Of a stretch of 64,000 bases of DNA, positions 1,533 to 64,000 are shown in pieces (position 1 is the first letter of the stretch; every line of letters starts with the position of its first letter). The stretch is from Trichoplax sp. H2 (Eukaryota), in the NCBI GenBank assembly GCA_003344405.1, contig NOWV01000160.1:1-64000 (forward strand), in the 5' to 3' direction. The notes under the pieces are model-generated. The model saw only the letters and a program-made list of their open reading frames with translations. It made no database searches and had not been told where the DNA came from. A program made the translations under genes and the position numbers.

Positions 1533-2162
1533 TGTCACAAATCAGCTTTGCGACAAGATAACGTAATGTACGATCAATAGGTCAATTCCTTGAACCACGT
1601 ATCAAGGGACAATATCTGCACTATCAGAAACACTTTTTCTCTACTAGCAGGCTACACAAAGACTTAGACGCCTCGTATTTTACGTTAAACCTAAGTTTAA
1701 GAATTAACTTTATTACACGATTTATTGCATTTATATACTCTTTCTCAATAGTTCATGAGTCATAGTTAGTACATTTAACTTTGGAATCATTCATTGAATT
1801 AGTCATTAATTTTAGCTGCTGCTTCCTAATGCAGACAACAGTATTTACGAACATAGACATTTGATGACTAATACAGAAAAGTCAAATTATGATATGTCCT
1901 ATCGCGGGATATTTCGAAGATAATTTACAATATACCATAAATAAGTTACAATCACAATGATTCGGACTGTAACTAGATAATTCGCATTCCCTAATATAGC
2001 TATTAATTTCAGTATATGTATATATATGTCACTGTCATAAAAAGGCAGTGCTACATTAAAACAAAGCATATCTAAATTAGAAGTTAACTAAATAAGGATA
2101 GCCTAACAAAATTATTCTTGCATAGATATTTCTACTCCAATGCAGTATATAATACTGTCACA
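1533..2162 (-). mobile_element. Solo-LTR-like element, family A copy 1
   Basis: TGTCACA...TGTCACA ends, homologous to 40725-41349 and 60586-61214. Degenerate TSD ACGGC/ATGGT. Terminal hairpin TGTCACAAA-TCAGC-TTTGCGACA. Confidence 0.85.
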
Positions 2163-2292
2163 ATGGTACTCATCTACCGTTGGTACAGCAAAAATGAGTA
2201 AATTATCAAAGCAAGATCTATTGTCGTATTTGATATTCACGAGCGAATAATGTGATAAAATCAAAAACAAAATAATGTCAGTTCTTACCTAA

Positions 2293-3282
2293 TTATCTTT
2301 TTAATGTATTTGTAGAATGCATTATTGATGTAGTTAAATACTTATACCGACTATGTAAGACCTCTCTTATGGCATCTAGAAAGTATCCATAGAGTAATGG
2401 ATTAACTGCTGGATAGGAAAATGCAATATAGCGACTGATAGCGGCAAAGTAATTACGAAACCAAGTTGGTAAACTGCAGAATGAATCAATATTCTGAAAG
2501 CTAAATAACACTATTTGAAATGTAATTAAGAATGGAAATATCATTGCGATAAAGATTATAGCTAGTATGGACATTTGTATTGCTGCTTGATTAGTTTTAG
2601 AGCGTAGCTTCGAAATTTCTGTCACTTGAACAAATGCCTGTTGGCTAAATATCGTACGTTTCTTCTTATAGATATAGTGATAAATGTAACAGTAGCAATA
2701 AACTATGATAGACGTCGGTACAATAAATAATACCAAATGGTATACGAGAAAGAAATTAGCTTCATCGATAACATTGTAACCTAAAATGCATTCATTAAGG
2801 CTTAGCTGCCGAAAAGTCATGATTGGTATCGCTGCAGTGGTGAAAGAAATAATCCAAGTTAACAGGACGATAGCTATGCAAAATTTTCTATTATTTATAT
2901 CTCGATATTTTATAGGCCATCGAACGGCAATATATCGATCTACACTAATTAAACACTGATGCAGATTATAATTTGATAATAGGGCTAATCCTATGATTGG
3001 CAACATTGAGCAAATTAAGGGAATGTTGATGAAAAAGTCACTTGAAAATAGTGGCAAAATATATAAAGCTCCAAACAAAATTCCAATAAAAAATGAACTG
3101 GTAATGATGATATTTGATGATCGTTTGGCCGATTTCGTAAATATTAAGGAAGAGAATAATATAAAATTATTGATAATTGCTAAAGATCCCACCGTGATCC
3201 ATAGCGATATATTTTCTGGTATACTATATTCGCTCAAACATAGAATATCTGCAGTTGAGTTTTTCGTAGTATTGTTGGCCAT
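2293..3282 (-). CDS. Single-exon class A (rhodopsin-like) GPCR, 329 aa
   Basis: Seven hydrophobic segments, N-terminal NxT sites, TM3 C...NYNLHQCLISVDRY, TM7 YPAVNPLLY. Confidence 0.93.
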   Translation of the reverse strand: MANNTTKNSTADILCLSEYSIPENISLWITVGSLAIINNFILFSSLIFTKSAKRSSNIIITSSFFIGILFGALYILPLFSSDFFINIPLICSMLPIIGLALLSNYNLHQCLISVDRYIAVRWPIKYRDINNRKFCIAIVLLTWIISFTTAAIPIMTFRQLSLNECILGYNVIDEANFFLVYHLVLFIVPTSIIVYCYCYIYHYIYKKKRTIFSQQAFVQVTEISKLRSKTNQAAIQMSILAIIFIAMIFPFLITFQIVLFSFQNIDSFCSLPTWFRNYFAAISRYIAFSYPAVNPLLYGYFLDAIREVLHSRYKYLTTSIMHSTNTLKR

Positions 3283-4254
3283 TTTGAATCAATTTTCAGG
3301 GAAACTATATTTGACAGTTGCAATATAACGCAATCTGAATTATAGCAATGTTATTTAAATGTTTTTGATGCTATAATTTGCAATTAATACCTGAATTAAC
3401 TTCTTAAATAATTTATAGTACATTATATTCCAAAAGTGTGTACTATGAATAAAAAGGCTATATTTTTGTAGTGCTACAAACTCAATGACTTAACAAATAT
3501 AATATGCTGTATCATTCAGTTCTTCCTTAACTTCTATGATATAATAATGTTTAATTTCCGTATCTCATACATTGCTAAAAAAATATTTCATTTTAAGCAT
3601 GTTATTAAATAGTATCAAAGAAAAATTTAAGTATATATTGCTCAACTATCGGAAACTATGCGTTTTCATACTATTGTGCCTATACCGATAACTGTTTAAT
3701 TAAGGCTCCTAACTAAGCTTAAAATTATTTTTTCGAATGCAAAAGTACAAGTTTATTGCCGTTGTATGAACTTGTAAGTGCCTCTTACCTTATCACACCC
3801 TTTATTGATATCAATATTTTACCATTAGCGCTATTATAATTTATCTGAAAAAGTGTGGATCTCATTACAAATGTAAGTTAGATCTAGAATTTAGTTGCAC
3901 AAATATTTAAAAATAAATTTAATAAAAGTTACGATTATGCTAGTGTTTATCTGTTAGCCACTGATTCACTCACAGTAATAAAATATTCAATAATTTAACC
4001 TGCGTTGCCTTTATCTAGTTACATTCGATAGCAAAATTAAAACATTAATGGTGATACGTATACTCTTATTGCAGACATTTTCGCTGTAGGACTACCAAAA
4101 TAGTGGTTAACGGTAAATTGATGTACTTATACATACTTAGAATTTTTATAATTTTAAGCTTCAAAAATGGTTAATCATACGTACGAAAATTAAAAGCATA
4201 ATTACGTTTTAAGTTTAAATCTTTGACTAATAATGAATATTTATGCCATTGCTA

Positions 4255-4859
4255 TGTTATGAGCTAGGAATAGCCCCAACTTTCAACTAGGTTTGAACGG
4301 TTGTTTTCTAACCTATACAACTGTTATATGAAGTAACAGTTTGTTAGTATTCCTAGGCAGGTAGGATTTAACATCGTAAGATCTCCAAACTTTCTAGAAA
4401 ATTACAATCTAATTTTTTTATCGGCGAAGTCGCTGCTTATATGAGTTTCGGTAACTAAAACTGATTTAACTACACAAGTCACTTCATTTATTAGAAATAA
4501 ATTAAATTAATATTCTAAAGAAATTTTATCTGTACAAATTAAATTATAGGCTAGCTCTATTAAATATGTTGTATCGGCATTACATTAATAAATTCTCGAT
4601 ATTAGTTTAACAAACACATATTAGGGTATCCTACTGAAATTTAGACATTGTACTTCAACTTCAACATCATTGGAAAAGATACAATCTAGTTAAACTAGTT
4701 GGCAATTACTATTTTAGTCTATCTAATCCTAAATTGAGGATTGCTAATACATCAAGTGTTAGCAACTAAAGTTACAATTGAAGAAACCGTAAAATTTCTA
4801 AGATATAAACATACACAGAACGTAATAGAAATAACGTTCAAACAACAAGTTTCATGACA
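4255..4859 (-). mobile_element. Solo-LTR-like element, family C copy 1
   Basis: TGTTATGAGCTAG...CATGACA, homologous to 8193-8813 and (inverted) 61220-61726. TSD degenerate. Confidence 0.7.
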
Positions 4860-6492: not shown

Positions 6493-7105
6493 TGTTGCAA
6501 ATCTCCTTTGTAACAAGAAACCGTGTCTTTAACACTATCTTCACTAGTACTCGTGTTCCCAACTAACTTAGGGACCTATTGTAGTTGAACTAACTTTCAG
6601 CTATACAAATAAGCTACTAATGAGTAATAGGTTTAAATACTTCACTTTTATTTGGTTAAACTTAGTTTTAAAATGTACTAAAGAAAACGTAAGAACATTC
6701 TCAGCAATAATGGTCAAAAGATCTCGCAAGTGACTAACTGGAACTGAACAGCTAAGCTAGTGCTCGGCTTTTTATAGTCTCGGCCAACGCCGATGGTGCA
6801 CTTGTGAATATTCTTGACATAGCGACTTACACTGTGCAGTATATATATATCCTATTGTAGCAAGTAAAGCCTTACGGTATTGCAAAGTAATTAGACCTTA
6901 CACTTAAGGTGTTATTAATTAACGTTTACTGACTAAGCGTGTTAGCTCCGACACGTCAACAATAATGAACTTTCTGATACCTTGGCAATAGCAAGTACTT
7001 ATTAATAAACATTAATATCTAATAAGTTACTGGAGCAAACAACAATTTTAATGAGATATTTTAATTAACATAGCAATTAATATTTCGGAGCATGGCTCCG
7101 TAACA
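6493..7105 (-). mobile_element. Solo-LTR-like element (613 bp)
   Basis: TGTTGCA...CCGTAACA with perfect 5-bp TSD GGTAC. Terminal hairpin TGTTGCAAA-TCTCC-TTTGTAACA. Its GCTCCGTAACA end is shared with 47511-48011. Confidence 0.85.
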
Positions 7106-8192: not shown

Positions 8193-8813
8193 TGTTACGA
8201 GCTAGAAGTAGCCCTGACGTGCAACAAGGATTGAGATAGTGATTTCTACCCTTTACTACTGTTATTTGGAACACCAAACAATTGATATTCCAAGGTAGGT
8301 AGGGTTTAAGATAGGGAGACCTTCCAGACTTACTAGAAAATCACGATCTAATTTATTGTCGGCGAACTTGCCGTTTATATAAGTTTCGGACCTAAAGGGG
8401 ATTCAGCTACTCAAGTCACCTCGTCTCTTAGAAATTAACTAAATTAATGCTCTAAAGAGATTCTATATATACAGATTAAATACAGTCTAATCCTATTAAA
8501 TTTACAGTAACAGTTTTAAAACAATTAATGCTTATTAATAGTTTAACAGATATATATAAAATTATCTCATTAAAATATTTCCTGTAAACTAACGAATTGT
8601 ACTTCGAACCTTAACAACTTGGAAGTGATAGATATAATCCACTTTAGCTGGTAGGTAATTAATGTTTTAGTCTATTTAATCGTAAATTAAGGATATCAAC
8701 TCTTAACCAGTTAAATTACAGTTAAGGAGACCGTAAAATAATTTTAAGATATCAGCATATATAGAACGTAACATAGAAATAAAGTAAACGTCACCAAGAT
8801 TACTATTGCAACA
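8193..8813 (-). mobile_element. Solo-LTR-like element, family C copy 2
   Basis: TGTTACGAGCTAG...GCAACA, degenerate TSD AGTAT/AGCAA, homologous to 4255-4859 and 61220-61726. Confidence 0.75.
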
Positions 8814-14949: not shown

Positions 14950-16100
14950 GTTAAATTCGATTTCAGTATAATAATGTAACAAAAGTAATACGAACTTATT
15001 GTAATTTAATATCTTATAATCAATCAGCTTTTATCATTTAAATAAAAGATTTAGTCCAAAAAATTGGTTCATGGCACATTTTAACTGTACCAACGGGGAT
15101 ATAGCTAATCTTTGGGGTGTTGAAACTAATGGAATTTGCAGTACCCTCAGTCTTCAATATATCTCAGACGCCTTTATATTTCATCGTATGATTTCAGAAT
15201 TGATTATATTCGACAATTTGTGAAGCTAATATACCGTACATTTTGGCGGCACTTAACATTGATAAATTATTTTCACTATCTAGCGGCTATTCTTGCTTAG
15301 TATCCAAATTAATTCAATAACACTTGCTCATAAACATCTGCTGGCTGATTCTAAATCATTCGATTACAGCACTATTTTTCCATTTATAGAACTATTCATA
15401 TTTTAACAATTTCTATTATTAATCAGAACTAAAATCACTACTGTAAACTACTAACTTAGTTACAATACAAAAATTCTTGTTCAGTACAAATGAAACTTAC
15501 AACACTGCAACTAGTTATAATTATGGTAAATTCTTAATTCATCTTTATAACTTAGATGCGAATTTAGATTCTTTATTAATCTGGAAAAACACATTGTTAG
15601 CTAAATATCTGTTTTAGCTTCTTTAAAATTTATCGCTTAAAGTACGCTACTGACCCTCATTGATCGTCTGTTAGCAATAATAATAACAATTCCTTTAGAA
15701 TAAAGCCTAAAGCTCAAATTTTTTGAAAGCTGATTAGTTTATAGCAATGTTGCATCTAATCAATTATCCACACTCAGATAATATTAATAAGTTAGCAGTC
15801 GTGTGTAATATAACGAGAAATATTACCAATAAATTCATTAAGAGTAAAATTCATAGAAAGCCTTATAAAAGGAATCATGTTAACCTAAAGCGTAATTGTT
15901 AAGCTATTTTGCAATAATAATTTATTATCTAGTCTCCAACATATTGCAAATTATGTTATCCAGCTACTAATCCAAGGAAATGAAAGTTTTGAAGTCAAAT
16001 TTTATGGGAAGCAGAAGGAATATCGATTTCAAAAGGAGAAGTAATTCTATGTATAAATTAGCTTTACGGCGTTGTTTCTATTTATACAGCATTAGTAACG
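14950..16100 (+). pseudogene. Possible highly decayed GPCR pseudogene
   Basis: Collinear fragments VIRTYCNLISYN (~14985), ILAALNIDKLF (15240-15272), ICWLI...TA-FPF (~15340-15385) and FII*SP (15921-15938), with many stops and frameshifts. Confidence 0.35.
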
Positions 16101-17515: not shown

Positions 17516-18876
17516 GATTTTTAGTTTAGAATTACTTATACACTAAATGACACTTTCGAATTAGCAGAAACCGTTAAATGATCTTAATAGACGAATAGGG
17601 TTGAGATTTTATAATGTGCCTCGAACATTCGCATAACTATGAGTTCGAGAACTGGTTAATAAAAATTGCTGCTGAGGAGAAAAATTTCTAAATGATCAAA
17701 CTCATCTAATGGATCTATTTTATACCTTACTAAATTTCTACAATGATTTTGTTGTTTAGTAGAATATTTTGGATATCTATTAAATATTAATTAATGTCAC
17801 GGTCAATTTTGTTTTCGCTGTCGCTGAAGTCAATTATTTCATATCGTTGCGCTTTCAAAAGTAAATTATATATTAATTTATAAGAATTTAAGCGCTGTGT
17901 TGGTAAACAGCTATACGATATTACTTATAACTATCACAACGAATTCTTACTATCATGAAATTTACATTAAAGATTATATAATATATAAAAATATTGACTA
18001 AGAAAGGTTCTGAACAATGCCATTAATAATTTAGATAGTTAAGAACTATGTATTATCTATTATATCGGCTAGCTACATACTACTCACAGTGTCTCCTATT
18101 CTGTTTGTGTTAGTAAATTCTTCATTTCATTAAACCTCAACAACACAGTCAATTAATTATCATGTGGTTACGTCAAATATTTACTGTAACTATCATAATT
18201 TCACTAAGTATTAAATTTGTTTCAAATAAGTTAATATGTTCTTATTAGTATATGCAAATAAAAATGATTTTAATCAAATTTAATAATAAAAGAATTATTC
18301 ATCAGTTTGTTAGCGACAACTTGAGTATTTCTTTTCCAAACATCTTTCCTAATACCATAATATGATGTCGCGTCTGTTATTTTGTTTTGATTTGGCTGAT
18401 ATCAAGACAGCTAATTTATAATTCATGGCAATAAAATTACATATAAATATTTATTAATTCGAGTGTTGGTAAACTCTTAAAGTGGATTTACAATTAAATA
18501 TTAGTGGAATGTACCTTAATACAAAAAAATTACAGTATTTGATTTTCAGATTACTATTACTGATACTCTTATGTATGTAATAACTTATATCACACAATGA
18601 AGTTAGCTTTTAGCTAATGGTCACATGATTAGCTTAGAAGGATTTATTTCAGATCTAATTGCAAGCTAACTAATTATTCTTAAAAGGAGCACGACCCTTA
18701 AAGTGATATTTTTATATTATAAAGTAATTCTGTTGACTCTATTGCAAACTTTTCAGTACGGGACCGCTTTTACTCTAATAAGTTATGTTTTTACTACTAA
18801 AATTGTGTTGATCATATTTCAGAAACAATTTTAAAGTACATTTAGCAATTATTAGTATTCAAACATGAAATATCGC

Positions 18877-19924: not shown

Positions 19925-20487
19925 TGTGATATAATCCAATCACGAAAATTCCAAAGTTGTAAAAAATTAGAACTTTGGTAGATCTAATACAAAGACTATC
20001 TACACACACCTCTACTCTAGCCTAATACAACTATTACAGGACTTCTAGAAAGAACGAACTGAATAGTCTAAAGTAGCCAATTTATATTCATTTTGTAGCA
20101 GTCCCAGCCATAATCAGCATAGCAACATTCTACCTCCATGTACACATAGTCAAACTATTATTAGAGACAATATTTTTCAGCCATCCATCATTAATCTGAT
20201 ATAGACACAACTACAGCATTTCGGTAGATACTATTCTTAGTAGTCAAATTACGGTAAACTAAGTATATCCTAATAGATAAATTACAGTTCTATTTTTACC
20301 TCTAGCCTTAATAGTAACTCAACGTCTTACTATATATAGTCATCAGTGCTATAGCATAGAATCTACTATTACAGTTCATAGTAGTGAGCTACTAAATACG
20401 TCTTAAGATAAGTATAGAAAGTTATGCTCCCATACATCTTACTAACATGGCTAGAAGTGTACAATCACATTACCAAATTTCGTTACA
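19925..20487 (-). mobile_element. Solo-LTR-like element, family D copy 1
   Basis: TGTGAT...GTTACA, TSD AAAAG/AAAGG. Homologous to the copies at 20597, 29542, 33522 and 61997. Confidence 0.85.
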
Positions 20488-20596: not shown

Positions 20597-21600
20597 TGTG
20601 ATAAAATCCGATCACTGAAATTTCAAAGTTATAAAAAATTAGAACTTTATTAGATTTAATACAATGACCAGCTAACACAGCTCTACCCTAGCTGAATACA
20701 AATGCTGAACCTTTCCTAGAAAGAACAGTCAGATAATCTAATGTCTCCTGCTTTTATACTCTCCCCTAGCCTTCGCAACTACAATCAGCTGTCATAAGCC
20801 AGCTTCGTGACAAGAATAACGTAAAATAAATCTCTAAATTACTATAGTCTCCGACATTCAGTATCCCTACTCACAAGAATTTAGACGCCTTTGATTCTAC
20901 GTTAAACTCAACTAGACAATTGAGAACTACTTTATTCAACTATCTGACGGGCTTATATACCCTTCTACAGCCGCTAACAATCACGATTTATCTTATAAAA
21001 ATACTTAGGTGAGAACATCTGCTAACTAATTTTTCACAGTTGGACTACAATATGTCCATTCATAGAACCATTTCAGTGCACATTACAGCACAGCATTAAA
21101 TTTACTGTAACACATTTATAATTAGAGTAATTCCTATTATAAGTAACTAGTTGTAATATAATATCACAATATTATATTAAGCAAATTTAGATAGCGATTT
21201 CTTCGCGGTAGTTCGTACCGTGACATCAGCATGACAGCATTCCACCATATTTTACTTTTACTTAGCATATTTTTAGTCACAATATTTTACAGCGAATCAT
21301 CATTAATCCAATACAGAAATGATTTCAGTATTCTCGAAGACATTATTTCTAACACTCAAAGTACAATGCACTAAGCATATCATAATATATGATTTACAAT
21401 TATATTTCTACCTGTAACCTTATAAGTAACTCAATGTTTTACCGTATATAGTTATCTGTACTCTAGCATAAAATTCCTACCATACAATCTATAATTATGA
21501 ACTACTAAATATATCATAACATAAATATAGAAACGACATAACCGTACATCATACTAAATATAGCTAATAGTCTACGATCACAATACGAAGTTACTTCACA
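20597..21600 (-). mobile_element. Solo-LTR-like element, family D copy 2 (interrupted by a family E insertion)
   Basis: TGTGAT...TCACA, degenerate TSD AAAGT/ACAGC. Family D homology resumes after 21230. Confidence 0.8.
20790..21225 (-). mobile_element. Solo-LTR-like element, family E copy 1, nested in D copy 2
   Basis: TGTCAT...GTGACA with perfect TSD TCAGC. Closely similar to 52623-53058. Confidence 0.9.
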
Positions 21601-23139
21601 ACAGCGCATCACTTCGAATTTCTTAATTTCAGCCTCACTTAATTTGTTATGTAATTACAGCTGTGTACGTGCATGTCTGCTACCAGAATTATTTAGATAA
21701 TATTTTTCGTTCCTTCTTACCATATGCACCTATACAGTGTTCTCTTACTCCATTTAATTTTTGGGAATTTGTTCAAATTTAAGATTTACGGATTATAAGT
21801 AGTAGTTATAAATAAACAGTGAAAATATACGGCCTATCATAATATCCTTGTAAACCCTACAACTAGACTGCTTAAAAATTTAAAGAATTTTAAAGAATTT
21901 CTAGAATAACAGTAAAATGTAGAAAGACCCATGGATTCAAACAATACCGTGATTAATAATCTTGTATTTTTTTTTACAAAAACTAAGTAACTTAATCATC
22001 ATATCTTTCAGAAAGCTATGAATTATAGTCATAACCTTATATTTTTATCAGCTAGTCTATTATCTTTTGATCATTTCTGCTGGCTGCTCAGACTGATATT
22101 ATTTTTACGGTTTGTTGGGAGTTTCTTAAATTGATCCAAGATAGCCTAGCTTACCAATTACATAATGAAGCATGCAGAGGTTCTAATGATTTCTGAGCAT
22201 TTCGTATGATTTCTGCTGCTTCTATAGTGACATTATCCTTAGCATGGACACATTATTCTGATGCATTATATGTACTTTAATGGATAGTTGATTTTTCATT
22301 AGCAATAGTTATATTTGGATATCCACATATGATATCTATAAGTTAGGTTATCTTCCTCTATTTATTTAAATTTATGAATTCTTAAATTTTCAGGAGGAGA
22401 GAATATTAATGCTTTAATTGTTAGTCTTGGATATAATCTAATAATAGATAAGTTACGATAAATCCCAAGAGTCAGTTATTACATGTTAGTAGCTAAACAG
22501 CTTTAAAGCAACGGTTATCTAAGCAATTGCTGATAGTTTGCCTAGTTTGAGAAAATGAGATTTGGTAACAGTTATCAAAATAAGTAACACTAAAGTTATT
22601 TATTTTTAGAGAGTGAGGTTAGCTAGTCTATAACTACGGCATATTGTAGACTAATACGTTTTGGTGTTAATGTGATTACTTTGGCTTCTTGATGTAATAA
22701 ATCGTTAAGTATTAGCGAATACTAAGAGAAATATTATGCAAACAAAACCTGAAAGTAAACCAGTACTACAATTTTATATAACGCACTCAGTTTGATAATA
22801 GTTATTATGTAATAAAGATTTGGATGACATGTCTGGTTTATGCAGATTTTTGTGTGCTACAACTACCCTTATGACACAAGAAATTACTCTCTTCTTCTAG
22901 TGAATTTTACTTTAATTCGTAATAGCATTTCTCTAGCCTACGATAAAGTAACTGAAATCTTTACGAAGTATACGTTCTAAGGCACAACACAATATAACAT
23001 AACTTTCTTTACTTTTAATTGATTTTTATTTCATACTATATCAATCGTATTAAACATATTTATCGCGCTATCAGTATTTTTAATAACAATAATGTTATTA
23101 CGATTTAGTTATCATGTACAGAATTTTGTAGTAATTAGC

Positions 23140-45075: not shown

Positions 45076-46647
45076 CACTTCTTAATTCTAGTATTAAATG
45101 TATGGGCTATAGAGAACTAAATAAGTGCGATTTTTTAACTGAAGTAGTAGCTAATTTAGTAAGATAATAAATAGTTGATGTAATTGGACTTAATGTACGG
45201 TGTTCGTGATGAATGTTAACCATTACGACTATGGAATTTATTCCTACATAAAACATGAGTATTGTTTAATCATCAGCAAACAAAAAAATATTTACGTATC
45301 TTATCCATGTCCCACGATGATCAAATTCGATAAATCATAATAGTTTGATATTAATGAATATAATTATTTTAATGAACTTATGAAAAACTATAGTCAGTTT
45401 TTGCATGAATCATAATTTACGGTACAAAAAATATATATGAACGTACATTGCATAAACTGACATTTAAGTGCATTAATCAAGCCCTGTTCTGATCTACAAA
45501 GGAGTCTTTAAGTTAGCTTCTTAAGAATGCCCCAATGTGTCTTAACGACGTCATTACTGTTTATTTACTGCATAAATTAAACTTCTTTTCTTACGCTATG
45601 CTGTATTAATTTATGAGCATATATTATAGATACAGCTGTATTTGACTCGTTGACTTGAAAATAAATATTTGCTATGGTTACACAACACTTGCATTGCTTT
45701 ACTAGATATTTAAGCCTATCTTAATGTTGTTCGCTGTACTATTACTACAAAGTTTCTAAATCTATTACCTTTCAACGAAGTTTAATTAAACGACAATACC
45801 ATACTATAATCATTGCGGCTTTAAACTTAATATCAATGATTAAATGTTATCATAGTTTATTAATTCATTAAAATATTTTAAAAATTAAACCGAAACATAG
45901 AAGTACCAGAAAACTATTCACAAGTACCGATAAACTTAGCAAAACGATTTGTGATAAAACTAGTCTCTTGACTAGTGATATTGGCTATTTTCTGCTATTT
46001 AAGTTATTTCCACCCCCTAAAAAAGACAATAGTTTGTAAACAATTACATAAAAATTATTAATCTTTTAATTTAAATTATTTACGACAATATCAATATCTA
46101 CAGTTATTATGATCTCTTTTCATACAACAATACATAACATAGAAGTATACATAATTATAATTAATTAAGCTTTCTACTGTTTTTGAAGGAATCCTTCAGT
46201 TTTGTTAGATTTTTGAAGTCAACATTGAAATTTTTCCTACTATATCTCGTAAAAACTAATAATAGTGAATCATCAATTTAACAATTGTCAACATAAATAT
46301 TTTAAAACGATATTAGGATTTCTAGAAAGCATCTTTCATTATTAAAACAATATATTAATCACTGCAAACTGCGCAAGAATAAATGTCAATATAATCTAGT
46401 TTCAAATGGATTTTAGTATTGATAAGACAATCCTCATAGATTTCGTAAGTAGAATATTCATTTTAATTCAATAACTTAATATATAATATAATTTTTAAAG
46501 TTTAGTAAAATAAGAGTATTTCGATTGAATTTAATCATTAGCCATTACTAATAATCTTAAATTTCGCCGACGCCAATCCGAACTGTTGATTTGTCAATGG
46601 AGTAAATCAAATCAAACTGGACAAAGATTTGAGAATGTAATACATGT

Positions 46648-48066
46648 TGCAGTAAAGGACTAAAAGTAGAGTCCTTTATAGCTTTTAGTACGCAACTAGT
46701 ATTATTTTACTATACAAAATACCTAGAAAATGATAGTGTCTTTAAGTTTTACCCTGCCAAATCATCATGTCGCCGTCTTATCTTCTTCATTATTTTACAA
46801 GGTATTATATAGATTACTATATAAGTACCATTAGAGCAAATGCCTAATCTAGAGAAACGGCGTTTTATCGTCTATTCAAATTGTAACAAAATTTGACTTA
46901 GTAACAAAACCCTATCCTTAGAGAAAGGGGATTTATAACATGACGATAAAGTACTGTATATGAAGTCTATAATCGTACAGTTACCGTACAATCTGACGCT
47001 AAAACATCAACTGTCAATACTCACGAATACTCAGCAATGCTAATGTCAGAAAAGTAGTCGAAATAATCATATAAATTTTTGGATAAGCGGGATTTTGTAA
47101 AGATTACAGTAATCGCTACTTAGCTAATTAAAAAATTTTTTATGACTATCACGATTACTTTTCTGACATTAGCATCGCTGAGTATTAACAGTTGATGTTT
47201 TAGCATCAGGTTATACTGTAACTGTACGATGATAGACTACATTATAGTACTTTGCCGTCATGTTATAAATCCCCTTTCTCTAAGGATAGGGTTTTGCTAC
47301 TATGTTAAATTTAGTAACAATTTGAATGGACGATCAAACGCCCTTTCTTTAGATTAGGCATTTGCTCTAGGGCTACTTGTATAGTAATCTATATTGTTTT
47401 AATACCTTGTAAAATAATGAAGAAGAAAAGATGGGGCGACATGATGATTTGGCAGGGTAAAACTTAAAGACACTATCACTTTCTAGGTATTTTCTATAGT
47501 AAAATAGTACTGTCACAAACTTATGTTGCGAACTACTAGACTAAACTAAACTAATAGATTACTGATGCCTTGCTCCACTACACCTGGAGACCTACTGTAT
47601 GGTAGTTCTTTACTACTTTCGGTCACACAGGGATAAGACCGTTCTAAAAGATTAGTATAGTTTTTATTAGTAGAGTAGCCGAGTACCTTCTCGTACACGA
47701 TCTAATATGGAACTCAGGAACTGAGCATTCGCTCGTCCTTTTATACCATTCCACTAAATTTATGGTGCATACATAGTAACTTGACAATATAAGATTTACA
47801 TGATTTGTAGTGGGTGCTAACGTGTCGCCATTATTAATATCTACTGTATATAGGCTCTACTAATTAATTGCAAATACAATTATGCCTTTTATTGTCTAGC
47901 AATCTAGACATTAATATTCTTAATTTCAATTATCACTTACCAATATGATCCATTAGCTAAATACTGACAAACTCAATTTAGTTAGCAAGTACGGTGCTTT
48001 GCTCCGTAACAAGTACTAGTTACATACTAAAAGCTATAAAGGACTCTACTTTTAGTCCTTACTACA
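46648..48066. mobile_element. Foldback (palindromic) derivative of long-TIR family B
   Basis: Left arm 46648-47089 and right arm 47090-48066 (minus the insert 47511-48016) are inverted copies. Ends TGCAGT/ACTACA. No TSD is recognisable. Confidence 0.85.
47511..48011 (-). mobile_element. Solo-LTR-like element nested in the family B arm
   Basis: TGTCACA...CCGTAACA with perfect TSD AGTAC. The other B copies lack it. Confidence 0.92.
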
Positions 48067-49861: not shown

Positions 49862-50552
49862 TGTAACAGAATAACCGACTAAATTTATCGTACGAGTAAC
49901 GATATGACTAATCGAATAACTATAGTAGCGGGAAATAGGTAAAGCGTGCAAGCTTACCGAATAACTACCAGAACTAACTAACGAGATAGGCGACAGAAGA
50001 TAGCTTTTATAATGTCAGGAGCACAGCAGGAGGAGATTATTTATAAGCCTGAATGATTCATGAAAACAGGTTTCTTCTATTTTAAGCTAGTGCTACGCTA
50101 CAAATTAGCTAGCGCACAAGGTTTTTCAACAGCGTAAATTGTTAAATATAGATCATACATATTTCGAGTTATGTTACTATCTTAGGGTAAGATTCCAGTC
50201 TAGGTAACGCTAATACGTTTACTAGAAATAGGCTACACCATATTTAGAAGTAAACACTACATCCTTGGATACTTCCATGTAGATATAAAAATTGAAATTT
50301 AACGCAGTGAAAGATCCTATCTCTCCAGAAAATCACAGTCTGTTTTATTGTTGGCGAGGCTTTGACTTACATAGTATCTAATATTTAAAACAGTTTAACT
50401 GTACGAGTTTTTTCGTCTCTTGCAACTTACAAAGTTAAAGTAGTATAGAGTCTCTACTTCTGAAAATTAGCTACAACACTATCCTATCGAGTTTTTACCG
50501 TGTTTGTATTAAACTAATCAATTCCTAATTTAACTGTTATATTGCAATTACA
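49862..50552 (-). mobile_element. Degenerate LTR-like element with a family-C-related segment
   Basis: Starts TGTAACA, reverse TATA (CTTTTATA) at ~50004, and 50320-50520 resembles 8335-8530. Boundaries uncertain. Confidence 0.4.
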
Positions 50553-52622
50553 CTATCAATCAAGATTTTTCGTCTACCTTCGATCTAAAATCTGATGAAG
50601 AAGCGAAATAAAACTGAAAACTTTAAGAAATTTTCTTTGTTGGGTTTTGCATGTGTAAATTTTATCGTTTACGCCGCATTTACCCATACATTCTTAGCTG
50701 GCAAACGACTATTACTGTAAACACTATCTAATAACAGTTATAGTTGCACACAAGATATAACCTGCCTCTGATTACACAAAATTCCTGCATTTTGCCTTAT
50801 TACACAGCATTAAACAGAAAAAAATCGCGTTTTAAAGAGAAACGTAAGACCTTCAAAAAAGTCATTCCTGCAGGAAGTTATTGTTCAATATCATAAGTTA
50901 TAAGTATTTTCTAGGATGCTACACAAAAATTCTGAAAGATTACGTCTATCTCAATATGCTATATTTCGCCTAGTAACGCTAATGCTGAAAGCAAGTTTCT
51001 TCTCATATTTGTAGTAATACAATAAATAAATAGAATTGGCTATAGACTTTTTTGTAATGTTTCAGACATCAAAATATATAAGTGAATATTATAAGAAATA
51101 CGTAGTATTCTTCTAGCCTAATACAATGACATTCTGCAGAAAGAAGGTATATTGTATATTGTATAATACCATCAAAACGTTGCTACTAGTAAGAAAGTAG
51201 CAATATTAAATCAGTATTTTTATAATTAGAGGATCAAAATTTGATTTTATCCCGATAGTTATCAAAAACGCTGTATGAAGCTTGAAGGTGGTTTTCGCAA
51301 ACATAATGCTGATAAATTCAGACTTGCCGAAGCATGAGATGAATGGTAATAATTTATTTCCTTTTTTCTCGGCACTATCTAAATTTTAACCCGATACAAG
51401 GAGATAATGCAAATAAGAAAAATTAATTAAACTAATTGCATTGTGATTTTTCAGCATTTACAGCCACAATAGAGTGCTTATTTTGGTTAATAGTCGCCGA
51501 CTCGAAAATTATTACGGGTACGCAAAACTCACCTACAGTATCATAGAGTTTGAGATTTTAGATAGAGTGGTAATTTTATACCGTATTTAATTACATCAGT
51601 TAAATATACATGATAGTAGATATTTCAAGTTTTTATCGTTAAAAATATTTGTAAGAGCTTATTTAAACATTAAAATTAATTTGTATCCTTTTTTAAATAT
51701 AAGAGGTAAGTTTTATGTTACGTCCAGCTATAATAGTAGTCAAAATCATTTATTACCCGCTACACAGGGATATGGTACGTTAATACTGCTGATATTTTAA
51801 ATATCGCGTCTTGTTAACATATTCTTAGCAGAAAAGCTTCTATTCATTAACTATTATAGGGCCTTGTAAGACAGTATAGTATTGTTTTCTAAGTCGATGA
51901 TATAGTTAGTAATGTCTACCGTTGTTAGTGTTCAACGTGTGATAAAAATTCCGTTAGACGATTAAGTATTAAATATCGCTAGCTTCGTATCTGTATCTTT
52001 TTGAAGAGGAATGCTACAGTGCACACACTAGAGCTTTCACATGAAAATTGTAGACTATCTGGTATTTGAGATACTAATGCTGAAATGCGTAGTAAGTAAG
52101 GTACTAAGATTGTTAACGAGGAAAATTATATAAGCGAGTAGTTTAGTACAGTAAAACAGTTCTTTCTCGTTAGAGTTCTTCAGCTGATCGATTACATTGT
52201 ATCTTTGTAAACGAAATTTTGTTCTATAAATTTTAATTTTCTAACGCCTTGAAGATTCTAGATCTATCAACCTCACAGGCCCAATTCTCTAAGTTAATCC
52301 AAAGTTCACCAAATTATTCCGTGTATAATTTTAATAAAGCGTATATGTATCGTCGTATTAGCCAATTAAAGGACAGCTAAAGGCAAAATTGCTTCATTGC
52401 GAGCAGGAATTACATAACGAGTAAAAGTACTTATATCATTCGATTGTTAGATGCTTTCTTTTGTCAATCCCTTTTATCTTTCTATTACATTATAACCTAG
52501 TAATATATAAGTTATCTAACTGCTTGTAAATTTATATATCAGTATGGTGCTTTACCTAGCATAGCTGCTGAGTATTTATCATTAACAATTGTTGAGATTT
52601 TTAGACAGAGTCCATTGAGATT

Positions 52623-53058
52623 TGTCACAAACCAGCTTCGTGACAAGAATAACGTAAAATAATTCTCTAAATCTCTTAAAATCTGCGGATTCAGTATCCC
52701 TACTCACAGGAATTTATACGACTCTGATTCTACGTCTAACTCAACTAGACAATTGAGAACTGCTTTATTCAACTATCTGACGGGCTTAAATACCCTTCTA
52801 CAGCAGCTAACATTCATGAGTCATCTTATAAAAATACTTAGGTGAGAACATCTGCTAACTAATTTTTCACAGTCGGACTACAATATGTCCATTTACAGAA
52901 TCACTTCAGTGCACATTACAGCATAGCATTAAATTTACTGTAATGCTTTTATAATTAGAGTAATTCCTATTGTAAGTAACTAGTTGTAATATAATATCAC
53001 TATATTATATTCACAAAATTTAGATAGCTATTTCTTCACGGTATTTCGTACCGTGATA
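52623..53058 (-). mobile_element. Solo-LTR-like element, family E copy 2
   Basis: TGTCACA...GTGATA with perfect TSD AGATT. Homologous to 20790-21225. Confidence 0.92.
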
Positions 53059-60585: not shown

Positions 60586-61214
60586 TGTGACAGTGTTATT
60601 TACTGTATTAGAATAGAAATATCTATGTTAAGATAATTCTATTAGCCTATATTTATTAAGTTTACTTCTAATTTGAATATACTGTGTTTTAATTTAGCAC
60701 TGACTTTTTATGATAGTGACACATATACACATACTGAAATTAATAGTTATAATAGGGAATGTAAATCATCTGCTTACAGTTCGAATCATTGTGATTGTAA
60801 CTTACTTATGCTAGATTGTAAATTATCGTGGAAATGTTCCGTGATAAGACATATCGTAATCTGACGATTCTGTATTAGCCATCAGATGTCTATGTTCGTA
60901 AATACTGTTATCTGCATTAAGGGAGCAGTAGCTGTAATTAATATCTAATTCAATGAATGATTCCAAAGTTAATCGTATTAACTATGACTCATAAACTATT
61001 AAGGAATAGTATATAAATGCAGTATATCGTGTAATAAAGTGGATTCTGAAACTTAGTGTTTAACGTAAAATACGAGGCGTTTAAGTCTTTGTGTAGTCTG
61101 CTAGTAGAGCAAAAGCGTTTTTGATAGTGCAGATATCGTTCCTTGATACGTTGTTAAGGAAATGACTTATTGATCGTACATTACGTTATCTTGCTGCAAA
61201 GCTGTTTTGTGACA
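60586..61214 (+). mobile_element. Solo-LTR-like element, family A copy 3
   Basis: TGTGACA...TGTGACA with perfect TSD ACTAG, TATATAAA at 61010, AATAAA at 61033. Confidence 0.92.
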
Positions 61215-61219
61215 ACTAG

Positions 61220-61726
61220 TCTGATATTATTAATCTACGATTACATAGACTAAAATAGTAATCGCCTACCAGCTAATCTGGATGATATTTATCACCTCTA
61301 AGTTGTTAAGGTTCAAAGTACAATTCCTAAGTTTAGAGGGAATTTCTTAGTAGAATAGCTTTATATGTATCTGTTAAAGTATTAAGCAGTATTGATTATT
61401 TTAATACTGTTACAGTAAATTTAATAGGATTAGACTGTATATAATCTGTAGAGTTAAAATCTCTTAAGGTATTAATTTAGTTAATTCCTTATAGACGAGG
61501 TGATTTATGTAGCTAAACCGGTTTTAGGTCTGAAACCTATATAAATGGCGAGTTCGCCGACAATAAATTAGATTGTGATTTTCTAATAAATCTTGAAGGT
61601 CTTGCTGTGTTACATTCTATCTGCCTTGAAATACCAATTGTCCGGTATTCCAAATAACGGTAGCAAAGTATCGAAACCATCCTCTCAATCCTTGTTGCAA
61701 GTTAGAGCTATTGCTAGCTCGTGACA
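61220..61726 (+). mobile_element. Solo-LTR-like element, family C copy 3 (left part interrupted by A copy 3)
   Basis: Reverse complement of ~8193-8700, ends CTAGCTCGTGACA. Confidence 0.8.
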
Positions 61727-61996: not shown

Positions 61997-62534
61997 TGTA
62001 ACAAAACTTATTATTATGATTATAGACTTTTAGCCACGTTAGTAAGATGCACGGAAGCGTAACTTTCTATATTTATCTTATGACGTATTTAGTAGCTCGC
62101 TACTATGGACTGTCATAGTAGATTCTATCCTATAGTACTGATGACTATATATAGTAAAGTGGTGAGTTACTATTAAGGCTAGAGGTAAAAATAGAACTGT
62201 AATTCATATATTAGAATATGCTTAGTTTAGCGAATTTTGACTGCTAAGAATAATATTCACGGAAATACTGTAGTTGGTTCCATATCGGATTAATGATGGT
62301 CGCTGTAAAATGTTGTCACTAATAATAATTTGACTATGTGTAAATCAAGGTAGAATGATGTTATACTGATTGTGGCTGTGAGCAACTTTAGACTATTCAG
62401 TACGTTCTTTCTAGAAGTCCTTGAATAGTTGTATTCCGCTAGAGTAGAGTTGTGTGTAGCCAGTCTTTGTATTAGATCTAATAAAGTCCTAATTTTCTAG
62501 AACTTTGGAATTTTCGTGATTGCATTTTATCATG
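61997..62534 (+). mobile_element. Solo-LTR-like element, family D copy 5
   Basis: TGTAACA...TATCATG, TSD ACAAT/ACTAT. Reverse complement of 19925-20487. Confidence 0.85.
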
Positions 62535-62723
62535 ACTATGTACTAATACTTGTCCTGGCATTAAACGGTGACATTGATAAAACAAACATTTAAATATATC
62601 GTTTCATGTGATCATAAACTATTAATTTATCCTAAATAATAATGTGCACTATCAGTAAATTTTGTAGCAAATTAAAATTCGACTTCTCTATGTGCATACT
62701 CTTGACGTATCGAAGAATAATTT

Positions 62724-63309
62724 TTAAAATAGCTGACTCTCATTCTCGGTAGGGTATAGCCAGGATTTCGAATTTTCCCTTAATAGCTTTTTTGAAGCTT
62801 TTTTGATATCCTGATCAAATACAAATAGTGAAGCTGGATTGACAATCGATATTGCGACTGTAGTTGTAAACGCAAAAAATATCATAGCAAAATAAACTGA
62901 GCTTATGTTTTATCTCCCTCTGTGAATGTGCCGTAAGCGCTAAGCATAACATTGTAACAAAAAATGGCTTAGTTACAAATACGTCTAAAGCGGTTATTAC
63001 TATTAATGTTTTTATTGATTTTCGTTTTCTTAATTCCTTATAATTATCAACCAAATGCTTCGGTTGAACATAACTTTTCATGTAGCGAGCAATTTTTCAG
63101 TATGTTAATATTAAAAATGTCGACGGAACAAAGTATGGTGTCACGGCAAGGACAACTAAAAAATTGAAACGTTTCGGATGATGATAGAAATATCACAAAA
63201 CATCGATTCGTCATCATGAGCACTTCCAAAATCAAAGAAAGGTAAAGATATTCAAACGGAGATGACCAATATCAGAATTTATATAATCGAAATCGAATAT
63301 AGAAGCATC
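62724..63309 (-). pseudogene. TM4-TM7 half of a GPCR pseudogene from a different family
   Basis: ISLPF, FCDI, YFVPSTFLILTY*KIARYM, RKRKSIKTLIVITAL..PFF and ISIVNPASLFVFDQDIKK, with stops and a frameshift. Cut at 63310 by an LTR-like element. Confidence 0.8.
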
Positions 63310-64000
63310 TGCCACGGTACAAACCACCGTGAAGAGTAAATAACTAAATTTCGTGGTCAACATTTACATATGGAGATAACTAATAATGAGCGATAGTAAG
63401 AACGACGGTAGTTAGTATTTTGTTGCAGTAAATTATGCTGCACTGCAGTTAGAGTTCTCATAAGCTTACTAATGTTAATTGATTATAGTATTCTGTCTTA
63501 TATCTCTTATCTTGTGATGAATATTCTTAAGATATTCAATTATAGAGGTTACTATAAATAATTCTGTGTATGGACATACTGTAATCTAATTATCTAGAAT
63601 CTTTCAGTACATATCTAAGATTATGAATAATTTCTGCATTGATTTAGCTATCCTATATGAACTAAATTTCGTGAGCTGTTATGACTCGTATATGATAGCA
63701 GGTGTCCAAGAGTATTTAAGCTCGGCAGATGGCAGATAGCAGCTGTAGAGGAGCAATTGATGATAATTTGTATAGGTTGTATAGAATTGCTATCGCGGAG
63801 GCTAAGTCGACTATTAGGTTTATCTTAGCCGTTTTCGACTGATATTATGAGGAGAAGAAATTGGAATTCTTCTCTGACGGACAATGCACGGACGTAATAA
63901 ACTTAACTTTACAAGTTTATTATTCGGTGTTGACTATTTTGTGTCACATTAGGGATTAGCACGTTTTGAACAACTCCGAATTTTGAGATGACAGATTACG
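63310..64000 (+). mobile_element. Chimeric LTR-like element (long-E 5' part, F 3' part), runs off the window end
   Basis: 63310-63740 is homologous to 41935-42350, and 63744-64000 is homologous to 25460-25722. Confidence 0.8.

What the first reader, a model, noticed from the sequence alone, without database searches (positions are those of the whole stretch)
1533..64000. Dense population of LTR-like units with integrase-type footprints but no internal retroelement sequence
Seen: more than 20 non-coding 430-690 bp elements in at least 6 families, about 12 kb of 64 kb, with TG(T)...(A)CA ends. Six have perfect 5-bp TSDs (GGTAC, TCAGC, ACAGC, AGTAC, AGATT, ACTAG). No PBS, PPT or gag-pol remnant was recognised next to any of them. 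Known: TG..CA ends with a 5-bp TSD are the footprint of LTR-retrotransposon integrases, and Ginger-type DNA transposases leave similar TGT ends. Inference: either solo-LTR formation is extremely efficient here, or these units move by themselves as a non-autonomous single-LTR/MITE-like class.
Basis: partly seen in the sequence, partly recalled or inferred. Interest (0 to 1): 0.8.

Follow-up and report, generated by a model that had tools for sequence, protein, structure and literature searches.

The report
Solo LTRs crowding a placozoan receptor cluster
A placozoan genome stretch carrying a row of receptor genes is peppered with about thirty short non-coding relics that look like the end-pieces (solo LTRs) of retrovirus-like jumping genes whose bodies are gone: a known kind of relic, but very abundant for a genome reputed to be nearly transposon-free.

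Summary
Self-comparison gives 27 repeat intervals (29 units, about 14.9 kb, 23% of the window) in at least 9 families. Units with both ends defined are 436-698 bp; family A is probably about 1.27 kb. Two nested insertions have paralogous empty sites.

No RT, integrase or gag domain, tRNA or Rfam family is present. There are no long TIRs and no internal sub-repeats. That argues against Ginger or MITE elements and against TRIM-like units.

The genes between the repeats are intronless rhodopsin-type GPCRs, and the closest named homologue is from Trichoplax sp. H2. Contig depth over the families is about 70 to 2,000 times single-copy. At least six of the insertions between 28.6 and 48.6 kb sit at the same sites in a roughly 1% diverged lineage.

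Published Trichoplax surveys list about 13,800 "Unknown" repeats but only 4-6 RT and 3-4 integrase ORFs.

Best reading: old, fixed solo LTRs of gypsy-type retrotransposons with almost no parents left. The solo-to-full ratio could not be measured because no genome was available.

The parts
1..639 (+). A1, family A copy. Its 5' part runs off the window start. It holds a 41-bp tandem repeat at 74-162.
1533..2162 (+). B1, family B, 630 bp, TGTCACA...TGTCACA. Flanks ACGGC/ATGGT match at 3 of 5.
4255..4827 (+). C1, family C, TGTTATG...CGTAATA. No TSD at these ends.
6493..7105 (+). K1, 613 bp, single copy in the window. Its 5' 36 nt resemble B/E/F and its 3' end resembles H1. Perfect TSD GGTAC.
8193..8773 (+). 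C2, family C, TGTTACG...CGTAACA (7-nt perfect inverted ends). No TSD at these ends.
15139..15499 (+). F3, diverged F-like fragment (about 58% to F1). Weak.
17795..18492 (-). L1, 698 bp, single copy in the window. 3' end ...GACCGTGACA as in E. TSD ATTAA on the + strand.
19925..20487 (+). D1, family D, TGTGATA...GTTACA. Flanks AAAAG/AAAGG match at 4 of 5.
20597..21600 (+). D2, family D copy split by E1 into 20597-20789 and 21231-21600.
20790..21225 (+). E1, family E, 436 bp, nested in D2. TSD TCAGC at 20785-20789 and 21226-21230. The other four D copies are uninterrupted at this point.
23068..23658 (-). F4, diverged E/F-like copy. Ends not defined.
24406..24613 (+). F5, 208-bp fragment, 94% identical to part of F4 (23139-23345) in inverted orientation.
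25460..25722 (.). I1, family I fragment (78% to I2). Ends not defined.
28234..28302 (-). 69-bp fragment of the family D 5' region.
29542..30098 (-). D3, family D, 557 bp, 96% identical to D4. Flanks CTTCC/CTTTC match at 4 of 5. It lies 45 bp beyond the stop of a GPCR ORF.
33522..34072 (-). D4, family D, 551 bp. Perfect TSD ACAGC on the + strand, at 33517-33521 and 34073-34077.
34546..35820 (-). A2, family A, about 1,275 bp. The 3' end ...CTACA is firm. The 5' end (TGACG...) is tentative, placed from depth and the unique-contig edge at 35789.
40725..41349 (+). B2, family B, 625 bp. The 5' TGTC is mutated to TATT. Flanks GCATT/ACATT match at 4 of 5. Highest depth of all families.
41935..42498 (-). 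F1, family F, 564 bp. Its ends are like E's and its middle differs. No TSD (0 of 5).
46647..47089 (-). A3, 5'-truncated A copy, head-to-head with A4.
47090..48066 (+). A4, 5'-truncated A copy split by H1 into 47090-47510 and 48012-48066.
47511..48011 (+). H1, 501 bp, TGTCACA...CCGTAACA, nested in A4. TSD AGTAC at 47506-47510 and 48012-48016. A1, A2 and A3 are uninterrupted at this point.
50297..50576 (+). C4, diverged C-like fragment (about 62%). Weak.
52623..53058 (+). E2, family E, 436 bp. Perfect TSD AGATT.
60586..61214 (-). B3, family B, 629 bp. Perfect TSD ACTAG on the + strand. It abuts or interrupts C3.
61222..61726 (-). C3, family C copy, 3'-truncated at B3.
61997..62534 (-). D5, family D. 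The 5' TG is mutated to CA. Flanks ATAGT/ATTGT match at 4 of 5.
63310..63730 (-). F2, family F copy. Its 5' part is replaced by or interrupted at I2.
63744..64000 (.). I2, family I fragment, cut by the window end.

Best explanation
These units are solo LTRs. Each is the single long terminal repeat left at an integration site after the two LTRs of a Ty3/gypsy-type retrotransposon recombined and deleted the interior.

Inferred history. Several related retrotransposon lineages were integrated by a retroviral-type integrase. Families B, E, F, H, K and L share terminal motifs. Integration gave TG...CA ends and a 5-bp target duplication. The elements reached hundreds to thousands of copies in a compact placozoan genome. 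They were then reduced almost entirely to solo LTRs, and the coding parents decayed or were lost.

The copies in this window are old, with 4-30% divergence between copies. At least six insertions in the 28.6-48.6 kb stretch are fixed in a second lineage that differs by about 1%.

Shown here: discrete insertion with a 5-bp TSD, LTR-type asymmetric ends, no coding capacity, high copy number and shared insertion sites. Inferred: the retrotransposon parent, the recombination step and the U3-R-U5 organisation.
For: 1. Ends and TSDs fit an LTR. 14 of 18 units begin with TG and 14 of 18 end with CA, in the gypsy/Ginger pattern TGTNR...YNACA (pattern quoted). 5 of 12 alignment-defined units have a perfect 5-bp TSD and 4 more match at 4 of 5, against 0.28% and 2.7% in random pairs.

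2. Two nested insertions have paralogous empty sites: E1 in D2 and H1 in A4. Each is a precise insertion of one whole unit with a 5-bp duplication of the host repeat's own sequence.

3. The units are asymmetric. The first 80 nt against the reverse complement of the last 80 nt scores at shuffle level in 12 of 12 units, with only 5-9 nt of terminal inversion.

4. There is no sub-LTR structure. First half against second half scores within or near the range of shuffles in 12 of 12 units.

5. Families share ends but not interiors. B, E and F share about 33-35 nt at one end, and E, F, H, K and L share CCGTRACA at the other. Related LTRs kept alike only at their integrase-binding ends would look like this.

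6. The families are dispersed and high in copy number. Summed contig depth over the elements is about 1,700-52,000, against about 25 for single-copy bins in run X1. Loose ends at three element edges come from 25-34 different contigs with consensus agreement of 0.42-0.51.

7. Contigs of the second lineage (runs X3, X4, X7; 72 differences in 7,490 bases) stop 24-54 nt inside the same edges of D3, D4, A2, B2, F1 and A3.

8. Genome-wide context from the literature. Trichoplax sp. H2 has 13,784 'Unknown' interspersed repeats (3.62 Mb, 3.82%). Its repeat ORFs give only 4 RVT_1 and 3 rve hits (6 and 4 in T. adhaerens), and fewer than 200 repeat entries reach 1 kb. Of the 56 LTR-class TE fragments with protein homology in T. 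adhaerens, 53 are gypsy.

9. One of those gypsy fragments carries, 25 nt from its start, a 23-of-23-nt match to the reverse complement of H1's last 23 nt. RT-type coding sequence follows on the same strand (compared by eye).

10. There is precedent. 18 of 34 LTR families of the asexual yeast Candida albicans are known only as solo LTRs or fragments, and 85% of S. cerevisiae Ty insertions are solos or fragments.
Against: No two-LTR parent, PBS, PPT or gag-pol was seen for any family. The defining link between LTR and interior is therefore untested, apart from one ambiguous 23-nt match that was compared only by eye.

The implied solo-to-full ratio is hundreds to one or more, far beyond the yeast precedents. 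The Candida solo-only families are also low in copy number.

The 2010 survey ran LTR_FINDER and found no credible two-LTR element.

C1 and C2 lack a TSD at the ends I set, and F1 has none.

U3/R/U5, promoter and polyA signals were not tested. The strand labels are arbitrary, and the supplement match suggests they may be inverted for H and K.

The depth ratios are not copy numbers, as the tool itself warns.

No insertion polymorphism was seen, so mobility rests on old footprints only.
Confidence: 0.63

Rival explanations
1. These are solo LTRs, but of non-autonomous two-LTR elements (LARD-like or large TRIM-like, with a short non-coding interior). A few autonomous gypsy elements would have supplied the proteins in trans, and the pairs later collapsed to solos. 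The footprint is the same; the parent differs.
For: Copy numbers are very high and coding remnants very few: 4-6 RT ORFs and fewer than 200 repeats of 1 kb or more genome-wide. The depth ratios reach about 2,000. Non-coding interiors would have been missed by the homology-based surveys.
Against: No pair with a short interior was seen in the window. D1 and D2 lie 109 bp apart in the same orientation, but they are only about 68-74% identical and their outer flanks match at 2 of 5. D3 and D4 are 96% identical, but D4 has its own perfect TSD, the outer flanks match at 1 of 5, and the 3.4 kb between them is single-copy and holds a GPCR gene. LTR_FINDER found only 10 candidates in 2010, none with more than two copies.
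Confidence: 0.17
2. These are DNA-level mobile units moved in trans by an integrase-type DDE enzyme. The enzyme would be Ginger-related or a free integrase, and it would need only the short TGTNR/YNACA ends. That is the reader's 'single-LTR or MITE-like class'.
For: The termini fit TGTNR, which Ginger shares with gypsy. Ginger is the largest classified DNA-transposon class in Trichoplax, with 974 pieces and 0.31% of the genome. No interior is known for any family. Retroviral-type integrases need only short end sequences (established knowledge, recalled).
Against: Ginger1 and Ginger2 have TIRs of 40-270 bp and, in metazoans, 4-bp TSDs at CCGG/CCGT or RTATAY targets. Here the inverted ends are 5-9 nt, the TSD is 5 bp, and none of the 7 perfect TSDs is of those kinds. 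The only sequence link found to a coding element is to an RT-bearing gypsy fragment, not to a transposase. No excision or empty site was seen between two lineages at any of the six insertions checked.
Confidence: 0.1
3. The units are not mobile elements at all. They would be segmental duplicates that arose with the GPCR gene array, plus chance TG/CA and TSD matches.
For: The window is a tandem GPCR array, which duplicates locally. The bare TG..CA-plus-TSD pattern is at chance level.
Against: Repeat copies do not keep a constant position or orientation relative to the GPCR genes. Flanks of other genomic copies are heterogeneous, and depth is 70-2,000 times single-copy. Nested insertions have exact empty sites. 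Perfect TSDs are about 150-fold enriched at alignment-defined ends.
Confidence: 0.01

Closest known systems
Solo LTRs of Ty3/gypsy retrotransposons, such as the yeast sigma (Ty3) elements. Trichoplax fragments of the gypsy 'Tag' and Mag clades are described in PMC2871265.
   Same: TG...CA ends in the TGTNR...YNACA pattern. Short imperfect terminal inversion. 5-bp TSD. A few hundred bp, non-coding and dispersed. Gypsy is the dominant LTR class among Trichoplax coding remnants, at 53 of 56.
   Different: No parent element has been linked to any family, apart from one ambiguous 23-nt match. Copy numbers look far higher relative to surviving interiors than in any case I could cite.
Solo-only LTR families of the asexual yeast Candida albicans (18 of 34 families; passages of PMC4139406).
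   Same: The LTR families are recognised only from TG..CA ends and 5-bp TSDs, with no interior known, in a compact and mostly asexual genome.
   Different: The Candida families are low in copy number (a few to tens). Here the depth ratios suggest hundreds to thousands per family.
Ginger1 and Ginger2/TDD DNA transposons (PMC2836005, passages).
   Same: TGTNR termini. An integrase-like enzyme. TDD-4 and TDD-5 make 5-bp TSDs. A Ginger class is annotated in Trichoplax.
   Different: The TIRs of 40-270 bp are absent here. Metazoan Ginger TSDs are 4 bp with CCGG/CCGT or RTATAY preference, which is not seen here.
TRIM and SMART miniature LTR retrotransposons (recalled, no paper read).
   Same: Small, non-coding, high in copy number, integrase footprint.
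   Different: Those carry two short LTRs with a PBS and PPT inside one unit. No internal direct repeat or PBS/PPT was found here.

Membership tests
Solo LTR of an LTR retrotransposon (Ty3/gypsy type) | 5'-TG...CA-3' ends with a short terminal inversion (gypsy pattern TGTNR...YNACA) | tested here: met
   14 of 18 units begin with TG and 14 of 18 end with CA. B2, D5, F1, C1 and E2 differ from their family's TG or CA by one or two substitutions, and F4's ends are undefined. The terminal inversion is 5-9 nt only.
Solo LTR of an LTR retrotransposon (Ty3/gypsy type) | Target-site duplication of 4-6 bp directly flanking the unit | tested here: met
   Of 12 alignment-defined units, 5 are perfect at 5 bp, 4 match at 4 of 5, 2 at 3 of 5 and 1 at 0 of 5. 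Background is 0.28% perfect. Two nested cases have empty sites. C1 and C2 have no TSD.
Solo LTR of an LTR retrotransposon (Ty3/gypsy type) | The same sequence occurs elsewhere as a direct pair around PBS, gag-pol and PPT | not testable with these tools
   No genome is held. Collection scans found nothing real. Only 24 of 3,159 loose-end rows were shown. The single lead is a 23-nt match next to a gypsy RT fragment in a paper supplement.
Solo LTR of an LTR retrotransposon (Ty3/gypsy type) | U3-R-U5 organisation with a promoter and a polyA signal | not tested
   AT-rich sequence makes TATA and AATAAA motifs uninformative, and no RNA evidence was laid.
Ginger1/Ginger2 non-autonomous DNA transposon | Terminal inverted repeats of about 40-270 bp | tested here: not met
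   In 12 of 12 units, the first 80 nt against the reverse complement of the last 80 nt scores 7-12, against shuffle means of 8-10. Definition.
Ginger1/Ginger2 non-autonomous DNA transposon | 4-bp TSD at CCGG/CCGT (Ginger1) or within RTATAY (Ginger2) | tested here: not met
   The TSDs are 5 bp: CTAGT, GCTGT, TCAGC, AGATT, AGTAC, GGTAC and TTAAT, in element orientation.
Ginger1/Ginger2 non-autonomous DNA transposon | Termini TGTNR | tested here: met
   The feature is shared with gypsy LTRs, so it does not discriminate.
TRIM/SMART miniature LTR retrotransposon | Two direct sub-LTRs inside the unit, flanking a PBS and PPT | tested here: not met
   First half against second half scores within or near the shuffle range in 12 of 12 units.
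MITE | TIRs plus the TSD of a DNA-transposon superfamily | tested here: not met
   A 5-bp TSD with TG..CA ends and no TIR fits no MITE class I know of (recalled).
SINE | tRNA-, 7SL- or 5S-derived head and an A-rich or simple-repeat tail | tested here: not met
   0 tRNA-like genes and 0 Rfam matches at gathering score. The ends are TG..CA, not A-rich.

The most novel reading that the evidence does not exclude
The units are not remnants of two-LTR elements. They would be a self-standing non-coding mobile class whose only requirements are the short TGTNR/YNACA ends, perhaps with the subterminal hairpin next to the CCGTRACA end. An integrase-type enzyme would move or copy them in trans without a conventional PBS/PPT-bearing parent. 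That would explain thousands of copies in a genome with almost no RT or integrase genes.
Probability: 0.08. Interest if true: 0.8.

Novelty: new member of a known kind. Interest (0 to 1): 0.4.

Why it matters
Placozoan genomes are cited as nearly free of transposons. One survey gives 0.13% TE and 0.04% LTR retrotransposon. A later one leaves 3.8% of the genome as 'Unknown' interspersed repeats.

If the families seen here are typical, much of that unknown fraction is solo LTRs. In that case the lineage once carried a large gypsy-type retrotransposon load that has been erased almost completely down to its LTRs.

That changes the history read from the genome. It becomes a past burst followed by near-total purging, in a mostly clonal animal, not a genome that was always poor in TEs. 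It also gives a concrete and countable case for the question of how asexual lineages rid themselves of retroelements.

Locally, the GPCR array carries about 23% of such relics, against 4.6% interspersed repeats genome-wide. This is relevant to how such arrays expand and are regulated.

The four paper searches I ran found no description of placozoan solo LTRs. Repbase and Dfam could not be consulted, so the families may already be filed there.

Tried and rejected
- Whole-genome search. No genome is held for this window.
- Public collections. A 26-mer of family B gave 0 hits in metagenome contigs and 0 in genome contigs. A 20-mer of family D gave 7 metagenome loci. None has any further similarity to the window, so they are chance matches.
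- Read laying. No joint that skips a whole element (an empty site) was listed for any of the four runs. The listed joints join paralogous positions of repeats. Only 24 of 3,159 loose-end rows were shown, none at a B or D 3' edge, so the test for a shared interior next to the LTR could not be made. Depth ratios are quoted as ratios only.
- Pfam on 75 ORFs of 60 aa or more: no retroelement domain. Rfam at gathering score gave 0 matches, so no hammerhead or retrozyme signal. tRNA scan gave 0.
- D3 and D4 as the two LTRs of one element around a GPCR gene: rejected. D4 has its own perfect TSD, the outer flanks match at 1 of 5, and the interior is single-copy.
- D1 and D2 as a miniature two-LTR element with a 109-bp interior: rejected. 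They are about 68-74% identical, the outer flanks match at 2 of 5, and there is no TGG or purine tract.
- B1's 3' flank holds the only TGG within 10 nt of an end. I did not accept it as a PBS. It was not checked against any tRNA, and 130 bp further on a GPCR ORF ends.
- A naive structural scan for X-TG..CA-X is at chance level, 376 against 338-414. It is useless as a detector, though it did locate K1 and L1.
- Subterminal hairpin next to the CCGTRACA end. 78.6% of cells pair, against 26-52% when the partners are slid. Covariation is weak: 44 of 500 shuffles reach the observed score, and the structure was read off these same sequences. I keep it as a note only.
- Twelve short terminal motifs were searched in the 139 published TE fragments. 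One meaningful hit was found (row 5). The others lie inside coding sequence and look like chance.
- Paper searches for placozoan solo LTRs found none. One search returned nothing relevant.

Full report
**What the window is.** The window is 30% G+C throughout. It carries seven intact intronless ORFs of 320-386 aa, all on the minus strand and all rhodopsin-type 7TM receptors (Pfam 7tm_1, E 1e-16 to 1e-24). There are also decayed copies of the same gene family at 9426-10369, 26048-26447 and 62818-63096. No whole genome is held for it. The closest named relative of one receptor is a Trichoplax sp. H2 protein (36% identity). It sits on a contig of the same length, 181,049 bp, as the window's own protein. 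I therefore treat the window as placozoan, of the Trichoplax lineage.

**The observation.** blastn of the window against itself gives a clear set of dispersed repeats. I grouped them into families A, B, C, D, E and F, plus a small family I. Alignments with flanks fix the ends of B, C, D and A.
- Two further units, H1 (47511-48011) and the extension of A2 to about 35820, were not found by self-comparison. They came from a family alignment that breaks off and from read depth.
- Two more, K1 (6493-7105) and L1 (17795-18492), came from a structural scan. They share terminal motifs with the other families.
- In all there are 27 intervals, or 29 units with the nested ones, totalling 14,851 bp or 23% of the window. 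This count includes some weak fragments.
- Units with both ends defined measure 436-698 bp. Family A is probably about 1.27 kb.

**Ends and target duplications.** 14 of the 18 units tabulated begin with TG and 14 end with CA. B2, D5, F1, C1 and E2 differ from their own family's TG or CA by one or two substitutions, and F4's ends are undefined.
- For 12 units whose ends were set by alignment alone, the 5 nt on either side match perfectly in 5: B3 CTAGT, D4 GCTGT, E1 TCAGC, E2 AGATT and H1 AGTAC. They match at 4 of 5 in 4 units, at 3 of 5 in 2 and at 0 of 5 in 1 (F1).
- Random pairs of 5-mers at the same spacing are perfect 0.28% of the time and match at 4 or more 2.7% of the time.
A seventh is ATTAA at L1.
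- Against this, C1 and C2 show no TSD at the ends I set.
- The bare pattern 'same 5-mer, TG...CA, same 5-mer' is no commoner than in shuffled sequence, 376 against 338-414. The footprint therefore counts only where an independent alignment fixes the ends. K1 and L1 were found by that scan, so they are supported mainly by their shared end motifs.

**Proof of discrete insertion.** Two units sit inside other repeats.
- E1 splits D2. With E1 and one TCAGC removed, D2 aligns without a break to the other four D copies, which read ...ATCAGCAT... at that point.
- H1 splits A4. Copies A1, A2 and A3 run straight through the site.

These paralogous empty sites show that a whole unit, from TG to CA, enters as one piece and duplicates 5 bp.

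**What the units are not.**
- They have no coding capacity. None of 75 further ORFs of 60 aa or more hits any retroelement or transposase family.
- There are no tRNA-like sequences and no Rfam family.
- There are no long terminal inverted repeats. The first 80 nt against the reverse complement of the last 80 nt scores at shuffle level in 12 of 12 units, and only the outermost 5-9 nt are inverted.
In metazoans they make 4-bp TSDs at CCGG/CCGT or RTATAY (passages of PMC2836005). Both features are tested here and not met. Only the TGTNR end pattern is shared, and that pattern is also the gypsy LTR pattern.
- There is no miniature two-LTR structure inside a unit.
- No PBS-like or PPT-like sequence lies beside the units. 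1 of 19 has TGG within 10 nt of its end, and none has an adjacent purine tract.
- Two suggestive pairs are separate insertions: D3 and D4 (96% identical, 3.4 kb apart, around a receptor gene) and D1 and D2 (109 bp apart). D4 has its own perfect TSD. The outer flanks match at 1 of 5 and 2 of 5 respectively. The D3-D4 interior is single-copy.

**Family relationships.** B, E and F share the first 33-35 nt at 83-89% identity, and K resembles them there. E, F, H, K and L share CCGTRACA at the other end. C ends in ACGTAACA. The interiors are unrelated or only weakly related. Related LTR lineages that keep only their integrase-recognition ends would look like this. Next to the CCGTRACA end, a 6-bp stem can be drawn in 5 of 7 units, but the covariation support is weak.

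**Abundance, age and fixation.** I laid the contigs of four runs on 28601-48600 at 80% likeness.
- In run X1, single-copy bins have a summed depth of about 21-47. Bins over the elements reach 52,328 (B2), 21,220 (D3), about 3,900-4,800 (A2), 3,524 (F1) and about 1,700-1,800 (A3, A4, H1). These are ratios of about 70 to 2,000. The tool warns that they are not copy numbers.
- Every bin outside the annotated units is single-copy. In that 20 kb the annotation is therefore complete, at about 5 kb or 25%.
- Loose ends at three element edges come from 25-34 different contigs with consensus agreement of only 0.42-0.51. The other copies therefore lie in many different contexts.
- Contigs of the second organism label (X3, X4, X7) differ from the window at 72 of 7,490 listed bases. 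They end 24-54 nt inside the same edges of D3, D4, A2, B2, F1 and A3 as contigs of the first label do. Those insertions predate the split.
- Copies within a family differ by 4% (D3/D4), 8% (B2/B3), 10-14% (A, E, B1) and up to 30% (C, D). No empty-site joint was listed.

**Context from the literature.**
- A 2010 survey of T. adhaerens found TEs by protein homology only (I read Findings part 1 and reviewers' comments part 1). It reported 0.13% TE and 53 gypsy fragments among 56 LTR-class fragments. It found no active element, and no credible two-LTR element with LTR_FINDER.
- A 2018 comparison of two Trichoplax genomes found 6.6-6.7% repeats (I read passages and the whole of supplementary table S2). 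Most were 'Unknown' families from a lineage-specific library: 13,784 pieces and 3.62 Mb in H2, and 11,770 pieces and 3.55 Mb in T. adhaerens. Fewer than 200 repeat entries reached 1 kb. Only 4 or 6 RVT_1 and 3 or 4 rve ORFs were found.
- The units described here are of the size and abundance to be a large part of that 'Unknown' class.
- Four searches of the paper library found no description of solo LTRs in placozoans. Repbase and Dfam were not available.
- Solo-only LTR families are well known from another compact, mostly asexual genome. 18 of 34 LTR families of Candida albicans have no known interior, and 85% of S. cerevisiae Ty insertions are solos or fragments (passages).

**A single link to a retroelement.** I searched twelve short end motifs in the table of the 139 published fragments, where cells are cut at 400 characters. 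One meaningful hit resulted.
- In a 618-nt gypsy-type fragment on a T. adhaerens contig, positions 26-48 equal the reverse complement of the last 23 nt of H1. By eye, the next 22 nt match at 15 positions.
- A purine-rich 25 nt precedes the match. Gypsy-type RT coding sequence, broken by stops and a frameshift, follows on the same strand.
- This could be an internally deleted element whose 5' LTR begins with that end. In that case my strand labels for B, E, F, H, K and L are inverted.
- It could instead be a nested remnant, or sequence shared between the LTR end and pol.
- I could not align it with a tool. It is a lead that ties an H/K-type end to an RT-bearing element and not to a transposase.

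**Verdict.** The most likely identity is old, fixed solo LTRs of gypsy-type retrotransposons (0.63). A variant in which the parents were non-coding two-LTR elements comes second (0.17). The Ginger/MITE reading fails its testable defining features but survives in a weaker form, an integrase-type enzyme acting on short ends (0.10). The decisive count of pairs against solos needs a genome and could not be made here.

The kind is known. The families appear undescribed in the papers I could search, and their abundance sits oddly with the 'TE-poor placozoan' picture. That is the main interest.

Noticed in passing
2293-3288, 16532-17542, 30143-31162, 37149-38309, 44062-45081, 53165-54154, 58671-59633 (all minus strand); decayed copies at 9426-10369, 26048-26447, 62818-63096: A tandem array of intronless rhodopsin-type GPCR genes, 7 intact and at least 3 decayed, all in one orientation and only 56-61% identical to each other at the DNA level. 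Repeat density here is about 23%, roughly five times the published genome-wide interspersed-repeat figure of 4.6%.
   Followed up: partly
46647-47089 (-) and 47090-47510 (+): Two 5'-truncated family A copies meet head-to-head at 47089/47090. They are truncated at nearly the same family position, forming a palindrome of about 2 x 440 bp. This looks like an inverted duplication, not two separate insertions.
   Followed up: no
74-162 (A1), compared with A2 around 35000-35060: A1 carries 2.2 copies of a 41-bp tandem repeat where A2 has about one. The repeat number varies inside the family.
   Followed up: no
last 25 nt of E1, E2, F2, H1 and K1 (for example 21201-21225, 47987-48011, 7081-7105): A 5-6 bp stem-loop can be drawn just inside the CCGTRACA end, with different stem sequences in E (CGGTA/TACCG) and K (CGGAGC/GCTCCG). 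78.6% of cells pair, against 26-52% when the partners are slid. The shuffle control is weak (44 of 500), and the structure was read off these same sequences.
   Followed up: partly
H1 end 47989-48011, against row 5 of additional file 2 of PMC2871265: A 23-of-23-nt identity, compared by eye, between the reverse complement of H1's end and a stretch 25 nt into a published T. adhaerens gypsy RT fragment, on the coding strand. It may mean my strand labels are inverted, or that the LTR end and pol share sequence.
   Followed up: partly
60586-64000: A nest of five units from five families (B3, C3, D5, F2, I2) within 3.4 kb. B3 abuts the truncated end of C3, and F2 is broken where I2 begins.
   Followed up: partly
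34073 joined to 40729 in contigs of runs X1, X3 and X7: Somewhere else in the genome, a family D end lies directly against a family B start. This is a further sign that these units insert next to or into one another.
   Followed up: no
19925-20487 and 20597-21600: Two family D copies lie in the same orientation only 109 bp apart, yet they are only about 68-74% identical. They are independent insertions very close together, which may hint at a local target preference.
   Followed up: partly
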